From IMG/VR virus record IMGVR_UViG_2541047941_000003, positions 1-47,471 of that record: a stretch of 47,471 bases of DNA, one strand, 5' to 3'. This document shows, piece by piece, positions 2,835-10,871 of this stretch. Under the pieces are notes generated by a model. That model ran no database searches and was not told the origin of the DNA. It was given only the letters and a program-made list of their open reading frames with translations. How positions within the stretch are numbered: position 1 is the first letter of the stretch; each line of letters begins with the position of its first letter. This DNA is from a virus. Its lineage: Duplodnaviria > Heunggongvirae > Uroviricota > Caudoviricetes. Both the position numbers and the translations under genes were made by a program.

Positions 2835-5800
2835 TTATGCCTGAGTACGCAGCGCTTCAAGGCGGCGCAGGTCGAAGTCGTTCAGTTCGTCGGTGTAGTC
2901 AGCAGTGATTGGCGCTGGCCATTCACCTGTGTCGAATCCGGTTGCGATATTGCGCATCGCTTTGCGGTACTCGAGCATACCCAGCTCCAGTAGTTCAGCG
3001 GATGCCTCGATGATGGCGATCCAGTGGTAGTTCTCGTCTTTGTTGACGAAAATCCAGAAGAACTGATCCAGCGCTGCGGTTTCGCAGTACATAGCCGCGC
3101 TCAGGTGATAATCACGTTCAATAATTTCCCGGTGTAGCCTGGCGCGCAGGCTTTCCTGCTTAACATTCCACATGCTGATGGTTTTCAGGTCTGCACCTAT
3201 ACGCACGCCATCCAGGTCGATCTCAAGGTCAGGGCGCACACGAACTTCCAAGCCCGTCTCCTCGTCAAAACCAAAGTAGCTCACCTCAACGGCTCGGCTA
3301 GGGTGGGTCAGCAGCATGCCGGCGGTCGGGTGTGCCAGAAGCGCTTTTTGAATATTCAGCGCGGTGCTCAGCTGCTGGCGGGTGACCAGCACTTTTCCTT
3401 CCGGGTTATCGCGCCAGGCATCCAGCAGTTCGTCGGCAAATACGGCATCTGGTTTGACTGCCTTCACGGCCTGGATCATGTCTGCTTTGGTACCGGACAC
3501 TTTCAGTGGTGCCGGTTTCTGTGCTTCCTGAGCCACAAGGTCAGGGTTGATGATTGCCAACTGCTCCAGCAGCGCGTCACGGCTGCCGCTGGTTTTAACC
3601 GGCGGCGGCAGGGTGGCGTTGTACTCTTTAATGCATGCCTTCATTGCCGTCGCCGTCTGCTTCTGGTCACCATCAATACGCTGGAAGTCAGCTGGCAGCG
3701 CCATATAGTTCTGTGCCGTTTCTTCCAGGTTAGCGCCAAGCGGAACCTGCGGCGGCAGGGTGGCGTTGTACTCTTCCAGTAACACCTTGATGTCGTCGGC
3801 AGACAGCAGCGCCGGCAGGCTGGCATTGTGCTCATCGATAAAGGCGCGCAGGGTCGCGGCCGTTGTGAATGCGCCTTCAGGGATCACCGGTTCAACGCTG
3901 AATTCTGCGTCCAGTAGTTCAGGCTGCAACGCCAGCGCATGCACCAAGTTGCCCATGTCCAGCACCGCTGAGCGCTCTTTGACGATGGTTTTCTCTACGT
4001 GGCGCGCATTGAAGTACATCAGCGAAACGCGCGCATCTTTCACCTGGGTTGAGCTGATGCCGTTGGCGGCGTGGTAAACCTCGTTTGGCAGCCCTTCATA
4101 GCGGCCTGGCTCGAAATAAGCGGGATAAACAACAGCCGGTTCGTCAGATTGCGCTTCTGGCTCGGTTTGTGCTGCAACTGGTTCGGTTTGGCTTACAGAA
4201 TCGCTATTTTTGGCGACAGAATCCGTATTCTGGTTTACATCGTCCTTCTGGCTGGTATCTGACTCTTCACCAGACTCCAGACTGCTTTCGCCTGGCTGTA
4301 CTTCATCACCAGCTTGTTTTTCATCACTGACAGTTTCTTGAACCTGCACATTGCTGGTGGTCTCCGTAGCCTTTTTCGTGCCATGAGTTGCTGAGTTCTG
4401 CAGCAAAGCCGTAACGTCGAATATTCCGTTGCCGACATTTTTAACCAGTTCTTGTTCGACTTTCTGCGGTTGTGCTGCCGCTTCCTCTGCGCGGCGGCGT
4501 GCTCCTTCTTCACGCACGCGTTGCAGGTTCTCTTCGTGAGTGCAGAAGGATTTGCGCGGAGACTCCTTACCTTCAGGTTGGGGAATTTCCTGTGCTGCGG
4601 GTTCAGCCTCATGCAACGGCAATAACTCGACCGCGGAATTGAACGCGGCTGTCATGGTCTGGTTAACAAATTCCAGGTGAGCGACAGGAGTTAAATGAAT
4701 ATTTTCCGGTGCGATACGTACCAGGTTAAAAATAGCCGTGCGGTTAACACCCAGAACGCCTGGCTGATTGCGCAGGATGTTGCTCCATGATTTCCATGGT
4801 TCTTCTTTTTTGGTCACGATTTCTTTAGCGCGACGAAGAATGCTGCCCGGGATCTCGAAGTGGTTGAAGTCCATAGGCAGAAGGGCACACGCAATCTCTA
4901 AATCGAGAGTGTCCAGTGTGTGGTGTGCGTCAGGTCCACGGTCAGTGACGTAACCGCCGTCGGCATTAGTGCCGGAATCAGTACGCTGCACACTACTGAT
5001 GCGATTACCGGCGGCCCATTCGCGAACGAAGATACCGCGGTCGATGTGATCTGTAGCGAACCACAATTTCAAAAACTGGATTAAGGTTGCGAGTTCAGGG
5101 ATTTTTCCATCGACAGGGAAGACTTTCTTAACGGCATTCACGACTTTATGAATATCGTGCTCAATGGCTTTTTTGAATGCTTCCACATTCTCAGCTGCCA
5201 GCAGCAGGTTCTGGACGTACGCGTCATCGGTGTCCATCTCAAGGCGGACAATCTCATTTTTCTGCCCTGCGTCGATGTGATAGAGATATTCACCATCACC
5301 GATGAACTGAGCCAGTACGCGCTGGCGGAATGGCAGGGTGGCAACAACGATCAGGTTCGGTTGCTGTGTCTGCTGGGATTGCTCTTCGGTATCGACTTCA
5401 CCATCAACGACGCCACCTTCTGCCCGGCCGTTCTCGTCGGTCTGGATACCGTCCTCAACAGTGAGATCTTGACCCGTTGTAACGTCAGCAGCGTTGCTGG
5501 TTTCAGTTTTGAGCAACTGCAACTTACCACTGCGCCAGTCTTCTACCAGTTGATTGCGGTCACCGGCATCGGTGTTCACCCAGTCAGACATGAATGCAGC
5601 GATCAATCTTGGTTCGTGCTCTTCGTCTGGTGTGAAAATGTCCTTAACCGCCCGAATCATTTTCCACTCAGCATTCAGGCTGAGTTTGGCGGTCGCGGGC
5701 ACATCGTTCCTTGCCACAAGCAGGCTATGGAGATATGTATTGCCTTCATCCAGTGACATTTCGCTGGCAGCCAACTGCTGCTCTTTAGTGACGTGGGTTT

Positions 5801-6224
5801 GGTATTTATCGTTCATCAGATGGACGGCAAAGCGGACCGCTGGAGTACGGTTTTCAACCGGGACAATTTCGGACGCAGTCGCATCTTCAACGATTACGGT
5901 CGGAGTAGGTGTGTAGGGGGCGTAAACGGAACCAGTAGACACACCAGCGGCTTTTGGCAGCCAGGTGCGCCCATCGTCCTGAAGCTCGTAGCGATCACAC
6001 CAGGTAAAATCAACTTCACCTTCTTTCGGCAGGCCGTCGACAACTGGGAAATCAGTGCGAATCGGTTTGGCGTAGTCCTTACCCCGACCTGTTTCGATAC
6101 CTGCATCTTCCAGCGCAACATCCAGCATCAGATTGGCGCGAGCCTCGGTTTTAGCAGTGAACCAGACCACTGCATCTTGCTTTCCGGATTTCTGAGTGGC
6201 TTTAACCACATTAAAGAATTCCAT
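2835..6224 (-). CDS. recE: Exodeoxyribonuclease VIII (RecE-like), C-terminal PD-(D/E)XK/YqaJ-type nuclease domain
   Basis: 1129 aa; long acidic/low-complexity N-terminal region and conserved C-terminal nuclease-like region; followed by annealing protein. Confidence 0.65.
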   Translation of the reverse strand: MEFFNVVKATQKSGKQDAVVWFTAKTEARANLMLDVALEDAGIETGRGKDYAKPIRTDFPVVDGLPKEGEVDFTWCDRYELQDDGRTWLPKAAGVSTGSVYAPYTPTPTVIVEDATASEIVPVENRTPAVRFAVHLMNDKYQTHVTKEQQLAASEMSLDEGNTYLHSLLVARNDVPATAKLSLNAEWKMIRAVKDIFTPDEEHEPRLIAAFMSDWVNTDAGDRNQLVEDWRSGKLQLLKTETSNAADVTTGQDLTVEDGIQTDENGRAEGGVVDGEVDTEEQSQQTQQPNLIVVATLPFRQRVLAQFIGDGEYLYHIDAGQKNEIVRLEMDTDDAYVQNLLLAAENVEAFKKAIEHDIHKVVNAVKKVFPVDGKIPELATLIQFLKLWFATDHIDRGIFVREWAAGNRISSVQRTDSGTNADGGYVTDRGPDAHHTLDTLDLEIACALLPMDFNHFEIPGSILRRAKEIVTKKEEPWKSWSNILRNQPGVLGVNRTAIFNLVRIAPENIHLTPVAHLEFVNQTMTAAFNSAVELLPLHEAEPAAQEIPQPEGKESPRKSFCTHEENLQRVREEGARRRAEEAAAQPQKVEQELVKNVGNGIFDVTALLQNSATHGTKKATETTSNVQVQETVSDEKQAGDEVQPGESSLESGEESDTSQKDDVNQNTDSVAKNSDSVSQTEPVAAQTEPEAQSDEPAVVYPAYFEPGRYEGLPNEVYHAANGISSTQVKDARVSLMYFNARHVEKTIVKERSAVLDMGNLVHALALQPELLDAEFSVEPVIPEGAFTTAATLRAFIDEHNASLPALLSADDIKVLLEEYNATLPPQVPLGANLEETAQNYMALPADFQRIDGDQKQTATAMKACIKEYNATLPPPVKTSGSRDALLEQLAIINPDLVAQEAQKPAPLKVSGTKADMIQAVKAVKPDAVFADELLDAWRDNPEGKVLVTRQQLSTALNIQKALLAHPTAGMLLTHPSRAVEVSYFGFDEETGLEVRVRPDLEIDLDGVRIGADLKTISMWNVKQESLRARLHREIIERDYHLSAAMYCETAALDQFFWIFVNKDENYHWIAIIEASAELLELGMLEYRKAMRNIATGFDTGEWPAPITADYTDELNDFDLRRLEALRTQA
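3601..3836. repeat. Three imperfect copies of a ~28 nt coding repeat (cggcggcagggtggcgttgtactctt) inside recE-like gene, encoding E(Y/H)NA(T/S)LP motifs
   Basis: Direct sequence comparison of 3601-3628, 3747-3777, 3806-3836. Confidence 0.6.
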
Positions 6225-6363
6225 GTGAGATCCTCATTTTTGGGTGTTAGAATCCCCGGACCATTGATAGCGCCCATTGGGTTAACTTTGGTTTTAATGT
6301 TGTTTCCGGTGTAACTTTGGTCGGTACCACCGGACGTAGATCCCGCCTTGCGCGGGTTTTACG

Positions 6364-6525
6364 TTAGCCTTCGTGAGCCATCTGGTCGTGCGAAGCGCAA
6401 CGTTTGGAGCAATACTCTTTTTCTTTGCGCGCCAGCTGTGAGCCGTTGCGATAGAGAAGGGTGCTCTTGATTACTTCCTCCGTTTTAACCGGCTTGCCGC
6501 AATATCCGCATTTCTTGTCTAACAT
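6364..6525 (-). CDS. Small Cys4 zinc-ribbon protein (53 aa; below ORF-track cutoff)
   Basis: ATG..TAA ORF translating MLDKKCGYCGKPV...YCSKRCASHDQ with CxxC...CxxxC spacing; lies in early-left operon. Confidence 0.4.
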   Translation of the reverse strand: MLDKKCGYCGKPVKTEEVIKSTLLYRNGSQLARKEKEYCSKRCASHDQMAHEG

Positions 6526-6536
6526 GACATCCTCCG

Positions 6537-6887
6537 CTAGTGGCTGAGTCCATGCCCCAGACCGTTCAGATAAACTTCAACCAGCAAATCCTTGGTGTAA
6601 GTCATTTCTACGCCGCGATGCAGATACAAACGTCCGCGAGCGTTAGCTGATGCCGTCCAGGTTGAGTCTTTGTGTTTGACGAGCATCCCCGGCTGAACTG
6701 CGCCGCGGTTTACTGTCTGTGTACCGTAGTGCTGATGAACCATGATGTTCTCCAGTTTTTCTGAGTGAACTTCGCTGGTGATGCCGCGGCGCTGATCTTC
6801 ACGGTTGAGCGTTTTAACTCTGCAATTCACCACCGCGAAGCTCACTCTGTGCTTTGCCCTTGTCGCCAGGCTGGCGGAACGTTTCAA
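6537..6887 (-). CDS. Hypothetical early-left operon protein
   Basis: 116 aa ORF just downstream of OL-like operator region; start may be internal Met. Confidence 0.4.
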   Translation of the reverse strand: MKRSASLATRAKHRVSFAVVNCRVKTLNREDQRRGITSEVHSEKLENIMVHQHYGTQTVNRGAVQPGMLVKHKDSTWTASANARGRLYLHRGVEMTYTKDLLVEVYLNGLGHGLSH

Positions 6888-6988
6888 ACCTACTGCGCGT
6901 TAATCTCACCACCTCATTCCGGTCTTCGTATGCCCCGGACAGCTTCTTCGTGGGCGTCCTGCTTTGGTGGTTGTGTTGATGGAGTAAT

Positions 6989-7003
6989 TAAACACAATGT
7001 TTA
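6989..7003. promoter_or_regulatory. OL-like operator: palindrome TAAACAcaaTGTTTA, near-identical to OR site at 9059-9073
   Basis: Inverted repeat read directly; 14 of 15 positions match TAAACATAATGTTTA in cI-cro intergenic region. Confidence 0.55.
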
Positions 7004-7127
7004 TTTACGTGTCAACATAATGAGTGTTTTTATATAAACAAAAAGTTTAGTTGGTTGCGCTCGTTGGCACGAGTAGTATGTTTTGTGGTCTATTTTGTGG
7101 TTATAAAAAAATCGATGAGGGTGAGTT

Positions 7128-7334
7128 ATGGATCGTGACGAACTGGAAGAAGACCGCGCAGCGTTTATTGCGGGGGAGATTGGTGGCGCAGTTGTCAGTC
7201 TGATAGCTAACGGGATTGTGATCAGCCGCGATGCGATTGTGGATAGTCTAGAGGCTAAGCGCAGGGTAGTGGGAAACGTCATTCACAAGTGGGTATTGCG
7301 GGATGCGGCTGCTATGGTGAGAAAAGGGCAATAA
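7128..7334 (+). CDS. Hypothetical small protein (68 aa), convergent with cI operon
   Basis: ORF followed by bidirectional terminator hairpin. Confidence 0.4.
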   Translation: MDRDELEEDRAAFIAGEIGGAVVSLIANGIVISRDAIVDSLEAKRRVVGNVIHKWVLRDAAAMVRKGQ

Positions 7335-7336
7335 AA

Positions 7337-7364
7337 AACCCAGTTCGGTAACTGGGTTATTGCT
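7337..7364. terminator. Bidirectional intrinsic terminator (aacccagtt-cggt-aactgggtt flanked by A-run and T-run)
   Basis: 9 bp perfect stem, 4 nt loop, poly-A upstream and T-rich downstream; sits between convergent genes. Confidence 0.6.
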
Positions 7365-7790
7365 TTATTCAACAGATGATGGGGGGGTCGGTGCTTTCTT
7401 AAAGATCGACCACTGAGAAATGTAGGTCAGCAACCTTGAGCTTAACTCGAGTTCTTTTTGTAATATTTCGTCATAACGTTTATTTGCTGCTTGCATGGTC
7501 GCATCACTAGCGTGATTGTCATCCATAATGATCTTTAGCCTTTTCTTTTCTCGGCTTGAGCATATTGTAAATAACAGACCTGTAAATGACATTCCACCAA
7601 AATCCTTTAACGTTTTGATTACAAAAAGAAGAATCAAAGACAGAAAAGGAACAGATCTGTAGGCCCAATCACGAAACTCACCGTCAGGAAAGAAGATAGG
7701 AATAGCATCTGTAGCATAACCACATATGAGGGAGACAATTAGAAAAGGTAGTCCATTTTTAGCTACATTTTTAACGTTATCGTTAGCCAT
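7365..7790 (-). CDS. Small membrane protein (~141 aa, 2-3 predicted TM helices, charged C-terminal tail), cassette gene C
   Basis: Hydrophobic stretches GLPFLIVSLICGYATDAIPIFF, VPFLSLILLFVIKTL; ATG overlaps stop of upstream gene (ATGGCTAA); AT-rich. Confidence 0.5.
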   Translation of the reverse strand: MANDNVKNVAKNGLPFLIVSLICGYATDAIPIFFPDGEFRDWAYRSVPFLSLILLFVIKTLKDFGGMSFTGLLFTICSSREKKRLKIIMDDNHASDATMQAANKRYDEILQKELELSSRLLTYISQWSIFKKAPTPPSSVE

Positions 7791-8166
7791 GATTTTTTCC
7801 CGAGAACGATTTCGAGTCAACATGTAACTTTTGTGTTTTGACTACATAATACGCAAATCCAATCTTAACTAACCAATAAGCTACTGGTATGAGTGCTGCG
7901 TAAAGAGGGATATAGTACATAACCTTACCTCCTGTTAACCACACTATAACACCTAGCATCACTATTAGCGCGACAGAAAATGCTTTCAGCCCAACACAGC
8001 TATCAGGATGTGAAACACTGTTCCTTAGCAACAATATCCTGGATTCATCAAGTGTGTAAGGAATATCGCCAACATGATTTTCGATTTTTGGGAAGGTCTC
8101 AAATACTTCAACCCGATCAATCGAAATAATTGAGCTTGATTGATGATCTAAGCAAACTGCAGCCAC
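7783..8166 (-). CDS. Small membrane protein (127 aa, 2 C-terminal TM helices), cassette gene B
   Basis: GTG start preceded by GAGGG; TM segments AFSVALIVMLGVIVWL and IPLYAALIPVAYWLVKIGFAYYVV; AT-rich. Confidence 0.45.
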   Translation of the reverse strand: MAAVCLDHQSSSIISIDRVEVFETFPKIENHVGDIPYTLDESRILLLRNSVSHPDSCVGLKAFSVALIVMLGVIVWLTGGKVMYYIPLYAALIPVAYWLVKIGFAYYVVKTQKLHVDSKSFSGKNHG

Positions 8167-8168
8167 TG

Positions 8169-8492
8169 TTATCCCTCTCGAACCTTTAGTGATACTCGGT
8201 TAGCAGCAAATGTGGCAATGAAACCACATTCTACACATATAACAGGGAATGCCCATATACCTCGGCCAGCTGAATGAGGTAGAGGAAGGGTAATTATTGC
8301 AGGATAGTCTTGACTATCTTCTCGTGGAGGAACTCCCCAAAGCGTATGCTTACAAAGCGGACAGGCCATCTCGCCATGTTTTTCTTCGAGGCGTTGAAAA
8401 TAATCTCGAAATTCTTGTCTTGATATTGATAGCGTCAATGCTGTTGTATTGACACTTTCCTGACTTTTTTCTTCTTCAACCTGTTCGCCCAT
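8169..8492 (-). CDS. Small zinc-ribbon protein (~107 aa), cassette gene A
   Basis: CPLC...CVEC motif pair; first gene downstream of cI in same orientation; AT-rich. Confidence 0.45.
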   Translation of the reverse strand: MGEQVEEEKSQESVNTTALTLSISRQEFRDYFQRLEEKHGEMACPLCKHTLWGVPPREDSQDYPAIITLPLPHSAGRGIWAFPVICVECGFIATFAANRVSLKVREG

Positions 8493-8603
8493 CTCAGCTC
8501 TCAATATAATGATAATTAACTGGTAAGTGAATTTTGCATATCGTTAAGATGTATCCCATTGGTACAGAAACATCTGAGGGGTAAGTAGCTTTTAACTACC
8601 GTG

Positions 8604-8999
8604 CTACTCACCATCCCCCTTAATCCGCCGTCCCATGTACTTGGCGTACAGTTCATCGAGTTCTTTCAACCGTAGAGATACGATCCGCAACATGTTCTGT
8701 TGTTCTTCTTCGTTTGGGAGTTGATTATAGAGTTCCAACAGTCTCCGTTCGTCGTGTCTCAAACCGTCCTTAGCATCCACGTCCTGACCTAGAACCCACT
8801 CAAGACTTACGCCTAGCGCATCGGCAAGTTTTATTGCTGAGCTTTTTCCTATCGCTCCTCTGACAAACCAGTTGTTGACTGATTGTGCGCTCACACCACA
8901 GATTCTCGCTATATCCGCTTTGGATATGCGCTTCTTCTCGATGATTTCATTTAACCGCCGAACCTGCGGGTTATCTGTTTGGTGTGTGTTTTTTCTCAT
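8604..8999 (-). CDS. cI: cI-type prophage repressor, HTH_XRE family, no LexA-like S24 peptidase domain
   Basis: 131 aa; HTH ISKADIARICGVSAQSVNNW; divergent from cro-like gene across operator palindromes. Confidence 0.8.
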   Translation of the reverse strand: MRKNTHQTDNPQVRRLNEIIEKKRISKADIARICGVSAQSVNNWFVRGAIGKSSAIKLADALGVSLEWVLGQDVDAKDGLRHDERRLLELYNQLPNEEEQQNMLRIVSLRLKELDELYAKYMGRRIKGDGE

Positions 9000-9032
9000 A
9001 TATCAAGATTCTAAACTAAAAGTTTATCGCCT

Positions 9033-9049
9033 CAACATTCATAATGTTG
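9033..9049. promoter_or_regulatory. OR operator site: perfect palindrome CAACATTcatAATGTTG
   Basis: Inverted repeat in cI-cro intergenic region. Confidence 0.6.
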
Positions 9050-9058
9050 ACTTGAACA

Positions 9059-9073
9059 TAAACATAATGTTTA
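9059..9073. promoter_or_regulatory. OR operator site: perfect palindrome TAAACATaATGTTTA
   Basis: Inverted repeat in cI-cro intergenic region, 10 nt from first site. Confidence 0.6.
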
Positions 9074-9102
9074 ATTTGGTTCGTTATTACTTGGAGCCAA
9101 AT

Positions 9103-9336
9103 ATGAAAGCACTTGATAAAGCAATATGCATCGTAGGGGGTGCAACCCGTTTAGCAGAAAAGCTCAATGTATCCCCAATGACGGTCAGTCACTGGCGTCA
9201 CCGTGACAATGGATTCGTACCGGCTAACCGTGTCATTCCTATTTTCAATGCTACAGGTGTAACTCCACATGAGTTACGCCCTGATTTGTACCTCAACCCT
9301 ACGGATGGATTACCGGCTCAGGAAGCGAGGGCATAA
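9103..9336 (+). CDS. cro: Cro/YdaS-like HTH regulator
   Basis: 77 aa; GGAG RBS 8 nt upstream; divergent from repressor; HTH-like GGATRLAEKLNVSPMTVSHW. Confidence 0.7.
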   Translation: MKALDKAICIVGGATRLAEKLNVSPMTVSHWRHRDNGFVPANRVIPIFNATGVTPHELRPDLYLNPTDGLPAQEARA

Positions 9337-9338
9337 CC

Positions 9339-9878
9339 ATGCAGTCACTATCACTTCATCAAAATAGCGGATATCAAACGGCTGCGATGATAAATCGCAA
9401 TCAACCTGTCTCGGTAGATAAACATGACCAGATCCGCGATGCCGTTCGTGCGTGGGCGGGTGTAGATGGTCAGGATGTCGTTTCTGCTCTGATCATCGAA
9501 GAGTACCAGGCTCAAGGGGGAGACGAGATCACTTTCCCTGATGACCTCAGCCGACAGCGTCAGAAGCTTTTCCGCTTTCTGGATAACCATTTCAACAGCG
9601 AACGGTACCGCGAAAACGTTCGCCAGCTGACTCCGGCAATCCTCGCTGTCCTGCCGATTGAATACCGCAATCGTCTGCTACCAGAAGACAACGTAATGGC
9701 TCGTCTGGCAAGGCTGGAGAAGGAAACCAGCGAAGCGAAGATTGCTGTCGCAATGGATGCGCCACGTCATCAGAAGCTGAAAGAGTTGAGCGAGGGGATC
9801 GTGGAGATGTATCGCGTTGACCCTGGGTTAACCGGTCCGTTGATGGAAATGGTGCAGATTATGCTGGGGGCTATATGA
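9339..9878 (+). CDS. YdaT-like / CII-like early regulatory protein (putative)
   Basis: 179 aa immediately after cro-like gene, the position YdaT or CII occupies in lambdoid prophages; weak family assignment. Confidence 0.4.
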   Translation: MQSLSLHQNSGYQTAAMINRNQPVSVDKHDQIRDAVRAWAGVDGQDVVSALIIEEYQAQGGDEITFPDDLSRQRQKLFRFLDNHFNSERYRENVRQLTPAILAVLPIEYRNRLLPEDNVMARLARLEKETSEAKIAVAMDAPRHQKLKELSEGIVEMYRVDPGLTGPLMEMVQIMLGAI

Positions 9879-9962
9879 CCGGTTCAAAAATGGCGAAAGC
9901 CGCGGTGCTCGAACACCAACGGCTTTCAGGTGCAAAAACAGTGCGTAATTGCGGAGAACAGT

Positions 9963-10871
9963 ATGTCAAACACCGCTGAAATAATCAATTTCCCAAATAA
10001 AACCGAACAACCGGGAGGTCGTATGGCCGACCTGTCGAACGGGTATACCAAGGTCGCTAACGAGATCCAACAGCTTAAGCCTCGCCTGAGACTGTCAGGC
10101 CGGGAATGGCAATGTTTTGAGGCGGTGATCTGGCTTACCTACGGCTGGAACAAGAAACAGGACCGCGTGACAAATACGGTTATTGCCGAGCTTACGGGCC
10201 TGAGCGATACGCATGTATCGGACGCGCTTAAGTCTCTCGCAGAACGCAAAATCATCTTTTCACAGAAGCAGGGCATGATGAAAATCGTCGGTGTAAACAC
10301 TGACCTTTCAGCATGGATTTTAGACAAACCGGAAACGGGAAGAAAATTCCCGAAAACGGGAAAATCCTTCCCGAAATCAGGAATAACCTTCCCGAAAACG
10401 GTAGACACCCAATACAAGAACAAGAACAGTATTAAAAGATCTTCGTCCGAGAATTCTGACGAATCCTCTGACGCACGTCTGAAGAAATTTTTATCAACTC
10501 ATCCTGAAGCTGCGGTCTACACACCATCCGGTGCGAAGTGGGGCTCTGCTGAAGACCTCGAGACAGCTAAGTGGATTTCCTCCAGGGTGAAGCTGATTAA
10601 CCCAACCTGCAAAGCCCCGGACATGACCTCCTGGTCTAACACTGTTCGCCTGATGCGCCAGATAGACAACCGGTCGCACCAGGACATCTGCGCGCTGTAT
10701 GACTGGGCTAGCAAACACCACTTCTGGCAGACCAACATCCTGAGTCCCGAAAGCCTGCGTAAGCAGTGGGACAAGCTGACAATGCAGCGTAACGCCGGAG
10801 GTGAGCAGCGCGCTGTCAAGCCAGATCTGGACTTCAACAACACTGACTGGGCCTATGGGGTGATCCGATGA
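9963..10871 (+). CDS. Replication initiation protein (lambda O-like N-terminal domain)
   Basis: GGAG RBS; N-terminal REWQCFEAVIWLTYGWNKK...AELTGLSDTHVSDALKSL resembles phage O/replication-protein HTH; iterons inside gene. Confidence 0.7.
   Translation: MSNTAEIINFPNKTEQPGGRMADLSNGYTKVANEIQQLKPRLRLSGREWQCFEAVIWLTYGWNKKQDRVTNTVIAELTGLSDTHVSDALKSLAERKIIFSQKQGMMKIVGVNTDLSAWILDKPETGRKFPKTGKSFPKSGITFPKTVDTQYKNKNSIKRSSSENSDESSDARLKKFLSTHPEAAVYTPSGAKWGSAEDLETAKWISSRVKLINPTCKAPDMTSWSNTVRLMRQIDNRSHQDICALYDWASKHHFWQTNILSPESLRKQWDKLTMQRNAGGEQRAVKPDLDFNNTDWAYGVIR
10329..10402. repeat. Putative replication origin iterons (3-4 copies of TTCCCGAAAACGG-like unit) inside O-like gene
   Basis: ttcccgaaaacggg, ttcccgaaatcagg, ttcccgaaaacggt plus inverted ccggaaacgggaa; encodes repeated FPK(T/S)G peptide. 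Confidence 0.6.

What the first reader, a model, noticed from the sequence alone, without database searches (positions are those of the whole stretch)
7365..8492. AT-rich three-gene cassette in the rexAB-equivalent slot downstream of cI: candidate lysogen-expressed exclusion or abortive-infection module
Three small co-oriented genes lie between the cI-type repressor and a bidirectional terminator, bracketed by OR (9033-9073) and an OL-like operator (6989-7003). They encode a zinc-ribbon protein (CPLC...CVEC) and two small membrane proteins, and the genes are tightly coupled (2 nt gap; 8 nt ATGGCTAA overlap). GC content is clearly lower than the rest of the prophage, arguing for horizontal acquisition. 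In lambda this position holds rexA-rexB, a sensor plus membrane effector expressed in lysogens. I recognise none of the three proteins as a known family.
Basis: partly seen in the sequence, partly recalled or inferred. Interest (0 to 1): 0.8.

Follow-up and report, generated by a model that had tools for sequence, protein, structure and literature searches.

The report
Unknown three-gene cassette behind prophage repressor
A rare, conserved operon of three small genes of unknown families (one zinc-ribbon protein, two membrane proteins) sits directly behind the repressor of a Rac-like E. coli prophage, in the slot where phage lambda keeps rexAB, which makes it a good but untested candidate for a new prophage-encoded phage-exclusion system.

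Summary
Three minus-strand genes, A (8169-8492), B (7783-8166) and C (7365-7790), lie between an HTH-only repressor and a bidirectional terminator. They have a 2-nt gap and an 8-nt overlap, and GC is 0.40 against 0.517 for the window.

All three are real genes. The trio recurs in the same order in every related locus examined, down to 33-50% identity, with dN far below dS. It always sits directly downstream of a prophage repressor. That repressor can be any of several types: HTH-only ones ranging from identical to about 55% identical, and unrelated cI types with an S24 peptidase domain.

Prophages with the same backbone carry at least three other cargos in this slot, one with HicAB, so it is a variable accessory slot.

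None of the proteins matches Pfam, NCBIfam, PADLOC, RexA/RexB, SieB or any solved fold.

New here: A belongs to a wider family of about 100-aa zinc-ribbon proteins. In Yersinia, Pseudomonas and other phages, these also follow cI. They are usually paired with one membrane/coiled-coil protein whose N-terminus resembles that of B.

A defence function is plausible from position and architecture but is untested.

The parts
8169..8492 (-). Gene A: 107-aa cytoplasmic zinc-ribbon protein (two N-terminal helices, then C44-x2-C47 ... C86-x2-C89)
   Evidence: ORF and translation. The four Cys, W52 and the GRGxW motif are invariant in the close homologues. The Cys and a Trp are also kept across 46 representative clusters of about 100 aa. 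AF2 model pLDDT is 71.7. There is no Pfam, NCBIfam, PADLOC or PDB match.
7783..8166 (-). Gene B: 127-aa inner-membrane protein with a roughly 57-aa cytoplasmic N-domain (MAAxC...PKIENxVGDIPY), then a 2-TM hairpin with a near-invariant GGKVMYYIPLY turn
   Evidence: The start is conserved as ATG, GTG or TTG with a ribosome-binding site in homologues. The N-terminal 40 aa match the N-terminus of the single-gene partners of distant A homologues (hhalign probability 65%, E 6e-5).
7365..7790 (-). Gene C: 141-aa inner-membrane protein with a 2-TM hairpin (invariant CGYAT..IP..FP.G..R.WAYR), an amphipathic helix and a helical cytoplasmic C-terminal half ending in PTPP
   Evidence: AF2 predicts helices at 4-33, 38-63, 69-89 and 96-125. 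No family or fold match was found.
7337..7358 (.). Bidirectional intrinsic terminator that ends the cassette transcript (t_imm equivalent)
   Evidence: Every homologous locus has a strong GC hairpin plus T-run immediately after C.
8604..8999 (-). Prophage repressor (131 aa, HTH_3 / Phage_CI_repr HTH, no S24 domain), the first gene of the presumed transcript
   Evidence: The annotation in RefSeq relatives agrees.
8503..8531 (-). Weak promoter-like site (TTCACT-17-TATATT) between the repressor and gene A, a possible cassette-own promoter
   Evidence: This is a consensus scan only, with 8 sites found against 5.5 expected in the region. The TTCACTTA motif recurs upstream of A in L014, L017 and L026.
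9008..9072 (.). P_RM-like promoter (minus strand, 9035..9008) and O_R operator palindromes (9032-9050, 9060-9072)
6989..7048 (.). O_L-like operator cluster at the left edge of the immunity region
   Evidence: One search gives hits at 6990-7002, 7014-7025 and 7037-7048.

Best explanation
The three genes form one mobile accessory operon (a 'moron') attached to the 3' end of the prophage repressor gene. It is probably transcribed in the lysogen from the repressor's maintenance promoter, perhaps also from a weak promoter of its own, and it ends at the terminator at 7337-7358. It encodes a membrane-anchored complex. A is a small cytoplasmic zinc-ribbon protein that probably docks on the cytoplasmic N-domain of B. 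B and C are each 2-TM hairpin inner-membrane proteins with both ends in the cytoplasm. I think the most likely function is protection of the lysogen, and so of the prophage, against other phages. In that model A acts as the cytoplasmic sensor or regulator. B and C act as the membrane effector, either collapsing membrane function (Rex-like abortive infection) or blocking genome entry. What is shown: gene reality, strict co-inheritance of the trio, linkage to the repressor, terminator-bounded operon structure, cargo-slot variability, topology predictions, and the absence of known homologues. What is inferred: transcription in lysogens, the A-B contact, and the anti-phage function.
For: The trio keeps the order A-B-C in every related locus examined, down to 33-50% identity, and dN is far below dS. 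It lies directly downstream of, and co-oriented with, the repressor in every one of them. The repressor types include HTH-only forms (from identical or 94% identical down to about 55-77%) and unrelated HTH+S24 cI forms. No terminator lies between the repressor and A, and the intergenic RNA is unstructured with z = -0.57. A strong terminator follows C in all loci. The same repressor and backbone occur in 12 of 5426 E. coli genomes, but the slot holds four different cargos: this trio, YoaK+HicAB+141 aa, and two other pairs of a soluble protein plus a coiled-coil membrane protein. GC is low. The lambda equivalent of the slot is rexAB, and the cI-N region is a known mosaic hotspot that also holds the abortive-infection gene bstA (PMC8585504). 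Membrane proteins are typical suicide effectors in known defence systems (PMC9122126). Distant A homologues follow cI in 7 of 10 independent contexts, with different partner genes, which is the modular sensor/effector pattern typical of defence systems.
Against: There are no expression data and no phenotype. None of the three proteins matches any of the 5027 PADLOC defence models, RexA/RexB or SieB. No enzymatic or pore-forming domain is recognisable. The AF2 models are of moderate confidence and the fold searches gave nothing. AT-rich foreign DNA in E. coli is often silenced by H-NS (general knowledge), which could limit expression. Known entry blockers are usually single small proteins without a cytoplasmic partner.
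Confidence: 0.45

Rival explanations
1. The cassette is a toxin-antitoxin-like addiction module. The membrane proteins B and C are toxic, and A neutralises them. Its main role would be to stabilise the prophage rather than to exclude other phages.
For: A HicA/HicB toxin-antitoxin pair occupies the same slot in an otherwise identical prophage. The genes are small and translationally coupled. The cassette is retained in prophages that have lost their late regions (L001).
Against: No protein matches any toxin or antitoxin family in Pfam or NCBIfam. Three genes, two of them highly conserved membrane proteins, are more than a simple toxin-antitoxin pair needs. Many toxin-antitoxin modules in prophages act as abortive-infection systems anyway, so this rival overlaps with the main explanation.
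Confidence: 0.15
2. The cassette is a lysogenic-conversion module that changes host envelope physiology, such as stress tolerance, transport or colonisation. It would have no role in phage-phage conflict.
For: Two of the three products are inner-membrane proteins with very conserved transmembrane and loop residues. Prophage morons often act on host fitness; lambda bor and lom are examples (general knowledge). The same window carries another low-GC moron, an acyltransferase.
Against: The trio is very rare: 5 of 5426 complete E. coli genomes, and none found in two pattern scans of 185,579 species-representative genomes, the scan with gene A patterns and the scan with gene C patterns. It is found only in prophage immunity regions. 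The periplasmic loops are tiny, so there is little surface for envelope interactions.
Confidence: 0.15
3. The cassette is an accessory part of the lysis-lysogeny switch. The A-family protein would work with the repressor, for example as a membrane-tethered modulator of repressor stability or induction.
For: A-family genes sit immediately after the repressor in all close loci and in 7 of 10 distant contexts, whatever the partner gene is.
Against: The adjacent repressors are unrelated in sequence and mechanism, HTH-only in some loci and S24 autocleaving in others. Seven of 12 E. coli prophages with the same repressor lack the cassette altogether. A homologues also occur away from any repressor (L031, L043). 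BstA shows the same positional conservation without being part of the switch (PMC8585504).
Confidence: 0.1
4. The ORFs are chance reading frames or decaying pseudogenes in AT-rich spacer DNA.
For: All three are annotated only as 'hypothetical protein'. B starts with GTG.
Against: All three are conserved at 33-75% amino-acid identity in many loci, with saturated dS and low dN (dN/dS 0.09-0.27 where computable). Start sites and ribosome-binding sites are conserved.
Confidence: 0.01

Closest known systems
Lambda RexA-RexB (abortive infection, cI-rexA-rexB operon ending at t_imm)
   Same: The genomic slot and operon logic are the same: downstream of and co-oriented with the repressor, and ended by a terminator before O_L. 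Both combine a soluble cytoplasmic protein with small polytopic inner-membrane protein(s). C, at 141 aa, is about the size of RexB (144 aa).
   Different: There is no sequence relationship. hhalign probability is at most 1% for A vs RexA and for B and C vs RexB, and there is no PADLOC hit. This cassette has three genes, not two. A is 107 aa with a zinc ribbon, whereas RexA is 279 aa. B and C are predicted as 2-TM proteins, whereas RexB has 4 TM (general knowledge).
BstA of Salmonella prophage BTP1 (abortive infection, downstream of cI)
   Same: It is positionally locked to the prophage repressor across diverse phages. It was highly expressed from the prophage in lysogeny and presumed to share the repressor's promoter (PMC8585504).
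   Different: BstA is a single large DNA-associated cytoplasmic protein with a cis-acting aba self-immunity element. Here there are three small proteins, two of them membrane proteins, and no homology.
Superinfection-exclusion membrane proteins (SieB of lambda/Rac/P22, P22 SieA, HK97 gp15, T4 Imm)
   Same: They are small prophage-expressed inner-membrane proteins located in or beside the immunity region. In K-12 Rac, sieB lies next to this very slot.
   Different: There is no homology to Rac SieB. The known examples act as single proteins, whereas this is an obligate trio that includes a cytoplasmic zinc-ribbon component.
ydaG-ydaF of E. coli K-12 Rac prophage
   Same: They hold the exact positional counterpart, downstream of racR and convergent with the plus-strand gene in the sieB position.
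   Different: They are two very small proteins (44 and 51 aa) of unknown function, unrelated in size and architecture.
Two-gene modules 'A-family zinc ribbon + single-pass coiled-coil membrane protein' in other temperate phages
   Same: The A proteins are homologous (E down to 1e-39 and up to 1e-3). The position after cI is the same. The N-terminus of the partner resembles that of B.
   Different: The partner is a single protein with one TM and a C-terminal coiled coil that is probably periplasmic. In the Yersinia phage vB_YenM_30.14 and L031 variant, the partners are two soluble proteins. C has no detectable counterpart. None of these modules has been characterised either.

Membership tests
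RexAB (lambda-type abortive infection) | A RexA homologue (about 279-aa cytoplasmic sensor) | tested here: not met
   hhalign of the A family against lambda RexA gives probability 0.07%. No PADLOC hit at E<=1.
RexAB (lambda-type abortive infection) | A RexB homologue (144-aa, 4-TM inner-membrane protein) | tested here: not met
   hhalign of C against RexB gives probability 1.0%, and of B against RexB 0.09%. No PADLOC hit.
RexAB (lambda-type abortive infection) | Located in the repressor operon, between the repressor and O_L, and ended by a terminator | tested here: met
   compared with the lambda map.
RexAB (lambda-type abortive infection) | Exclusion of T4 rII and other phages with loss of membrane potential | not testable with these tools
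   This needs infection assays.
SieB superinfection exclusion | Sequence homology to SieB | tested here: not met
   hhalign of C against Rac SieB gives probability 1.1%. No PHROG or Pfam Sie family was hit.
Any catalogued anti-phage defence system (PADLOC-DB v2.0.0) | A match of at least one component to a defence-system HMM | tested here: not met
   Zero families for A, B and C at E<=1. Systems described after 2023 were not testable.
Type II toxin-antitoxin modules | A recognisable toxin or antitoxin domain | tested here: not met
   No Pfam or NCBIfam match.
Phage 'moron' (accessory transcription unit added to a conserved backbone) | Present or absent among otherwise near-identical phages, with deviant base composition | tested here: met
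   Five of 12 same-repressor E. coli prophages carry it, and others carry three alternative cargos. GC is 0.40 against 0.517.
Phage 'moron' (accessory transcription unit added to a conserved backbone) | Own terminator and own promoter | tested here: inconclusive
   The terminator is clear. The promoter is only a weak consensus match at 8531..8503, so read-through from the repressor promoter is equally possible.
A-family zinc-ribbon proteins (new, uncharacterised; partly overlaps phrog_4293) | About 100 aa, with an N-terminal helix, CxxC...CxxC and a conserved W, usually encoded right after a prophage repressor | tested here: met
   Profile search found 46 representative clusters. Alignments are, contexts. 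The phrog_4293 hit has E 3.7e-7 over residues 81-105.

The most novel reading that the evidence does not exclude
The A-family zinc-ribbon proteins would mark a previously undescribed family of repressor-linked prophage immunity modules. The family would be spread across temperate phages of Enterobacteriaceae, Yersinia and Pseudomonas. A conserved small cytoplasmic sensor or adaptor would be combined with interchangeable effectors: a pair of 2-TM proteins as here, a single-pass coiled-coil membrane protein, or two soluble proteins. That would make it a new class of abortive-infection or exclusion system unrelated to Rex, Sie or BstA.
Probability: 0.3. Interest if true: 0.75.

Novelty: new variant of a known kind. 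Interest (0 to 1): 0.55.

Why it matters
The slot behind the prophage repressor is where rexAB and bstA were found, and genes there are expressed in every lysogenic cell. A conserved module in that slot with no known homologues is a cheap candidate for a new anti-phage mechanism. It is only 1.1 kb and three genes, so it can be cloned directly and challenged with phages. The wider A family, whose partners are swapped between phages of three genera, offers a natural series of variants for finding out which part senses and which part acts. If the function turns out not to be defence, the strict linkage to the repressor would point to an unrecognised layer of lysogeny control. Either outcome would give a function to proteins that are currently annotated only as 'hypothetical'.

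Tried and rejected
- **Family searches.** Pfam, NCBIfam, PADLOC and PHROGs gave no informative hit for A, B or C. The only result was a C-terminal match of A to phrog_4293, which has unknown function.
- **PDB sequence search.** A profile of A against PDB sequences gave a best E of 0.5, to RNase P Rpp21. This reflects only the generic helix plus zinc-ribbon architecture.
- **Fold searches.**
  - BFVD for A gave a best E of 8e-3 to an unnamed protein, plus generic TFIIS-type ribbons.
  - Foldseek against PDB for C gave nothing.
  - The afdb50 library was unavailable.
- **Collection scans.**
  - Two scans of species-representative genomes, one with C patterns and one with A patterns, found no relative.
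  - Viral-contig scans with the distant A homologues P0042 and P0039 found nothing.
  - The diverse A alignment was too variable to make search patterns.
- **Rex and Sie homology.** Tested with hhalign and rejected.
- **FPKIE motif.** I suspected that the motif shared by B and the 103-aa Yersinia-phage protein indicated homology. hhalign gave probability 1.4%, so it is not supported.
- **B or C against the Pseudomonas 170-aa partner.** Not supported.
- **YafO idea.** I suspected that the 123/124-aa soluble partner in the Yersinia and L031 variant was a YafO-like toxin. BLASTP gave E of 1.4-4.8, so it is not supported.
- **Split-partner idea.** I considered that C is the detached C-terminal half of the single-gene partner. 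There is no detectable similarity.
- **RNA elements.** Rfam found nothing credible in 6300-9400.
- **Literature.** Searches by protein accession, by phage name and by keywords found no description of these proteins. The library holds open-access papers only.
- **Spurious profile hits.** P0051 (a cystatin-like repeat protein) and P0079 are artefacts of the A profile search.

Full report
**1. What is in the sequence**

The window is a Rac-like lambdoid prophage of E. coli. To the left lie RecE (2835-6224, minus strand), YdaE (6364-6525) and Kil (6537-6887; phrog_294). To the right lie an HTH repressor (8604-8999, minus strand) that diverges from a YdaS/Cro-like gene, then YdaT and replication genes O and P.

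Three minus-strand ORFs sit between the repressor and a hairpin at 7337-7358:
- A, 8169-8492, 107 aa.
- B, 7783-8166, 127 aa, with a GTG start preceded by GAGGG.
- C, 7365-7790, 141 aa.

The gene spacing is as reported: 2 nt separate A and B, and B and C share ATGGCTAA. The hairpin scores as a terminator in both directions. No terminator-like site lies between the repressor stop codon and A. The 114-nt spacer RNA folds no better than shuffled sequence (z = -0.57).

GC content of the cassette is 0.40 against 0.517 for the window, which puts it in the lowest 2.5% of equal-sized windows.

Operator-like sequences cluster at 6990-7048 and at 9032-9072. The motif search gave 13 matches against 3.35 expected.

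The repressor has only an HTH domain and lacks an S24 peptidase domain. It is only distantly related to K-12 RacR, with 41% identity over a 27-aa HTH stretch.

**2. The genes are real and travel as a unit**

Protein searches found only a few dozen clusters of homologues. The named ones come from Enterobacteriaceae: Klebsiella, Kluyvera, Cedecea and Enterobacter.

tblastn found A, B and C together, in that order, in every related locus fetched up to that point. These were two E. coli chromosomes, five contigs found through homologues and 18 IMG/VR viral contigs. The trio holds together even where identities fall to 42% (A), 33% (B) and 43% (C). Escherichia phage PHB10 also carries all three genes behind its regulator gene.

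Non-synonymous divergence is 0.18-0.68, while synonymous sites are saturated. Where dN/dS could be computed it was 0.09-0.27.

The start of B is ATG in most homologues and keeps a ribosome-binding site.

A strong GC-rich terminator follows C in every locus inspected.

**3. Genomic behaviour**

The trio always lies immediately downstream of the prophage repressor and in the same orientation. The repressor itself varies:
- HTH-only proteins, identical or near-identical in some loci and 55-77% identical in others.
- HTH-only proteins 94% identical to the window's, next to a cassette that is only 42-52% identical (L019, L025).
- Unrelated cI proteins with HTH plus S24 peptidase domains (Cedecea L003/L016, L020-L024).

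This pattern shows modular exchange of the cassette.

In 5426 complete E. coli genomes, the near-identical cassette occurs in 5. The same repressor with the same Kil/YdaE/replication backbone occurs in 12. In these backbones the slot between repressor and terminator holds four different cargos:
- this trio;
- a 149-aa soluble protein plus a 136-aa coiled-coil protein with a C-terminal TM (L036);
- YoaK + HicA/HicB + a 141-aa protein (L037);
- a 101-aa protein plus a 217-aa coiled-coil/TM protein (L038).

K-12 Rac has ydaG-ydaF in this position, and lambda has rexA-rexB.

The slot is therefore a typical accessory-gene (moron) position, and the trio is one rare occupant. Two pattern scans of 185,579 species-representative genomes found no relative.

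**4. The proteins**

*Protein A.* A has a disordered acidic N-terminus, two helices and a zinc ribbon. The ribbon comprises C44-x2-C47 and C86-x2-C89, and all four cysteines are invariant. The AF2 model has pLDDT 71.7.

*Protein B.* B has a soluble N-domain of about 57 aa with the motifs MAAxC and PKIENxVGDIPY. Two adjacent hydrophobic helices follow, joined by an invariant GGKVMYYIPLY segment, and the C-terminal tail is lysine-rich. By the positive-inside rule, both ends should be cytoplasmic. This is an inference.

*Protein C.* C has a lysine-containing N-terminus and two TM helices joined by an invariant loop, FP.G..R.WAYR. An amphipathic helix follows, then the strongly basic stretch REKKRLK and a long helix ending in PTPP. 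Again both ends should be cytoplasmic.

None of the three matches Pfam, NCBIfam or PADLOC. A profile of A found nothing significant among PDB sequences. The fold searches gave nothing useful:
- BFVD for A gave only generic ribbons.
- Foldseek for C gave nothing.

Direct profile comparisons with lambda RexA, lambda RexB and Rac SieB were negative, with probability at most about 1%.

**5. A wider family**

A profile of A searched against 1.84 billion representative proteins found 46 clusters at E of 1e-3 or better. Nearly all are about 100 aa and keep the four cysteines and a tryptophan. Two hits were artefacts. Named members come from Yersinia and Pseudomonas.

Contexts could be read for ten independent distant members.

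In seven of them, the A homologue lies directly after a cI repressor with HTH and S24 domains. In one of these a lipoprotein gene is interposed. The seven are:
- Yersinia phage vB_YenM_30.14
- Pseudomonas phage Aurca01, where the ORF is not annotated
- L029/30
- L032
- Yersinia nurmii L034
- L041
- L042

.

The other three are elsewhere:
- L031 lies near DinI and tail-fibre genes.
- L043 lies in a prophage remnant.
- L033 has an unknown context.

The usual partner is a single protein of 139-170 aa that overlaps A by about 4 nt. It has a cytoplasmic N-region carrying MxxxC and ENHDG motifs, one TM helix and a C-terminal coiled coil.

A profile-profile comparison links the first 40 residues of B to the N-terminus of this partner family (probability 65%, E 6e-5). 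C shows no similarity to it.

In the Yersinia phage and in L031, the partners are two soluble proteins. My guess that one of them is YafO-like was not supported.

The conserved core therefore appears to be A plus the B-type N-domain, with variable downstream parts. This is the sensor-plus-swappable-effector pattern common in defence systems, but it is an analogy, not a test.

**6. Most likely mechanism and rivals**

The best-supported reading is a lysogen-expressed membrane complex. A would bind the N-domain of B at the inner face of the membrane, and the B and C hairpins would form the effector. The complex would exclude or abort infection by other phages.

The structural parts are well supported: an operon, an accessory cargo, and a membrane complex with a cytoplasmic zinc-ribbon partner. 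The function is inferred from position, from the architectural analogy with RexA/RexB, and from the cargo in the same slot in other phages. I give the defence function about 0.45.

Rivals are:
- a toxin-antitoxin or addiction role (0.15), which overlaps with abortive infection;
- a host-physiology conversion function (0.15);
- a role in the lysis-lysogeny switch (0.10), weakened because unrelated repressor types carry the cassette and 7 of 12 identical-repressor prophages lack it.

Chance ORFs are excluded.

**7. Novelty**

The kind of element is known: an accessory operon in the repressor-to-O_L slot combining a soluble protein with membrane proteins. It is not a member of the Rex, Sie, BstA or any PADLOC family, and no open-access paper mentions these proteins.

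I rate it a new variant of a known kind. A specialist would not be surprised to find unknown genes in this slot. However, the conserved repressor-linked A family with modular partners is a concrete and easily testable lead.

Noticed in passing
window 7128-7334 (+): A conserved 68-aa ORF (full-length match to phrog_3975, E 1e-34, unknown function) converges on the cassette and shares its bidirectional terminator. It occupies the position that sieB has in K-12 Rac and lies just right of the O_L-like operators. It may be a second lysogeny-expressed accessory gene.
   Followed up: partly
L036 2054-2916, L037 1565-2954, L038 1987-2951 (E. coli chromosomes with the same repressor): The same slot holds three alternative cargos: a 149-aa soluble protein plus a 136-aa coiled-coil tail-anchored protein; YoaK + HicA/HicB + a 141-aa protein; and a 101-aa protein plus a 217-aa coiled-coil/TM protein with a Pro-Ala repeat. 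Two of them repeat the theme of a small soluble protein with a coiled-coil membrane protein, and they have no known family.
   Followed up: partly
L027 5980-6979 (Yersinia phage vB_YenM_30.14) and L031 1088-2057: This variant of the A-family module has two soluble partner proteins (90-103 aa and 123-124 aa; the latter are 55% identical between the two loci and contain WHYHIG...LDYHPPF). In L031 the module lies near DinI and tail-fibre genes, not next to a repressor. A YafO-like toxin relationship was tested and not supported.
   Followed up: partly
L028 4968-5306 (Pseudomonas phage Aurca01, PP179334.1): A 112-aa A-family zinc-ribbon ORF directly after cI is not annotated in the GenBank record. 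A 170-aa membrane/coiled-coil protein follows it, with overlapping stop and start codons.
   Followed up: yes
L029 4397-4969 and L033 2356-2901: Predicted lipoproteins (lipobox LTGC / LSGC; one has a weak DUF4156 match) lie just upstream of the A homologue. In L029 this puts the lipoprotein between cI and A. Prophage lipoproteins in this region are often exclusion proteins.
   Followed up: no
window 40650-42900, especially 41194-42285 (-): This is the only other region of the window with GC as low as the cassette. It encodes a 363-aa multi-pass membrane acyltransferase beside tail-fibre-like genes, probably an O-antigen-modifying lysogenic-conversion moron.
   Followed up: no
L001 (E. coli B18271, NZ_CP144710.1) 9627-10428: In two of the five E. 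coli genomes with the cassette, the prophage is deleted from within ydaS to a baseplate J gene, and recE is frameshifted. The repressor and the cassette nevertheless remain intact. The cassette is therefore retained in decaying prophages.
   Followed up: no
L019 and L025 (IMG/VR contigs): The repressor is 94% identical in protein to the window's, but with dS of about 2. The adjacent A, B and C are only 42-52% identical. This shows a recombination boundary right at the end of the repressor gene.
   Followed up: partly
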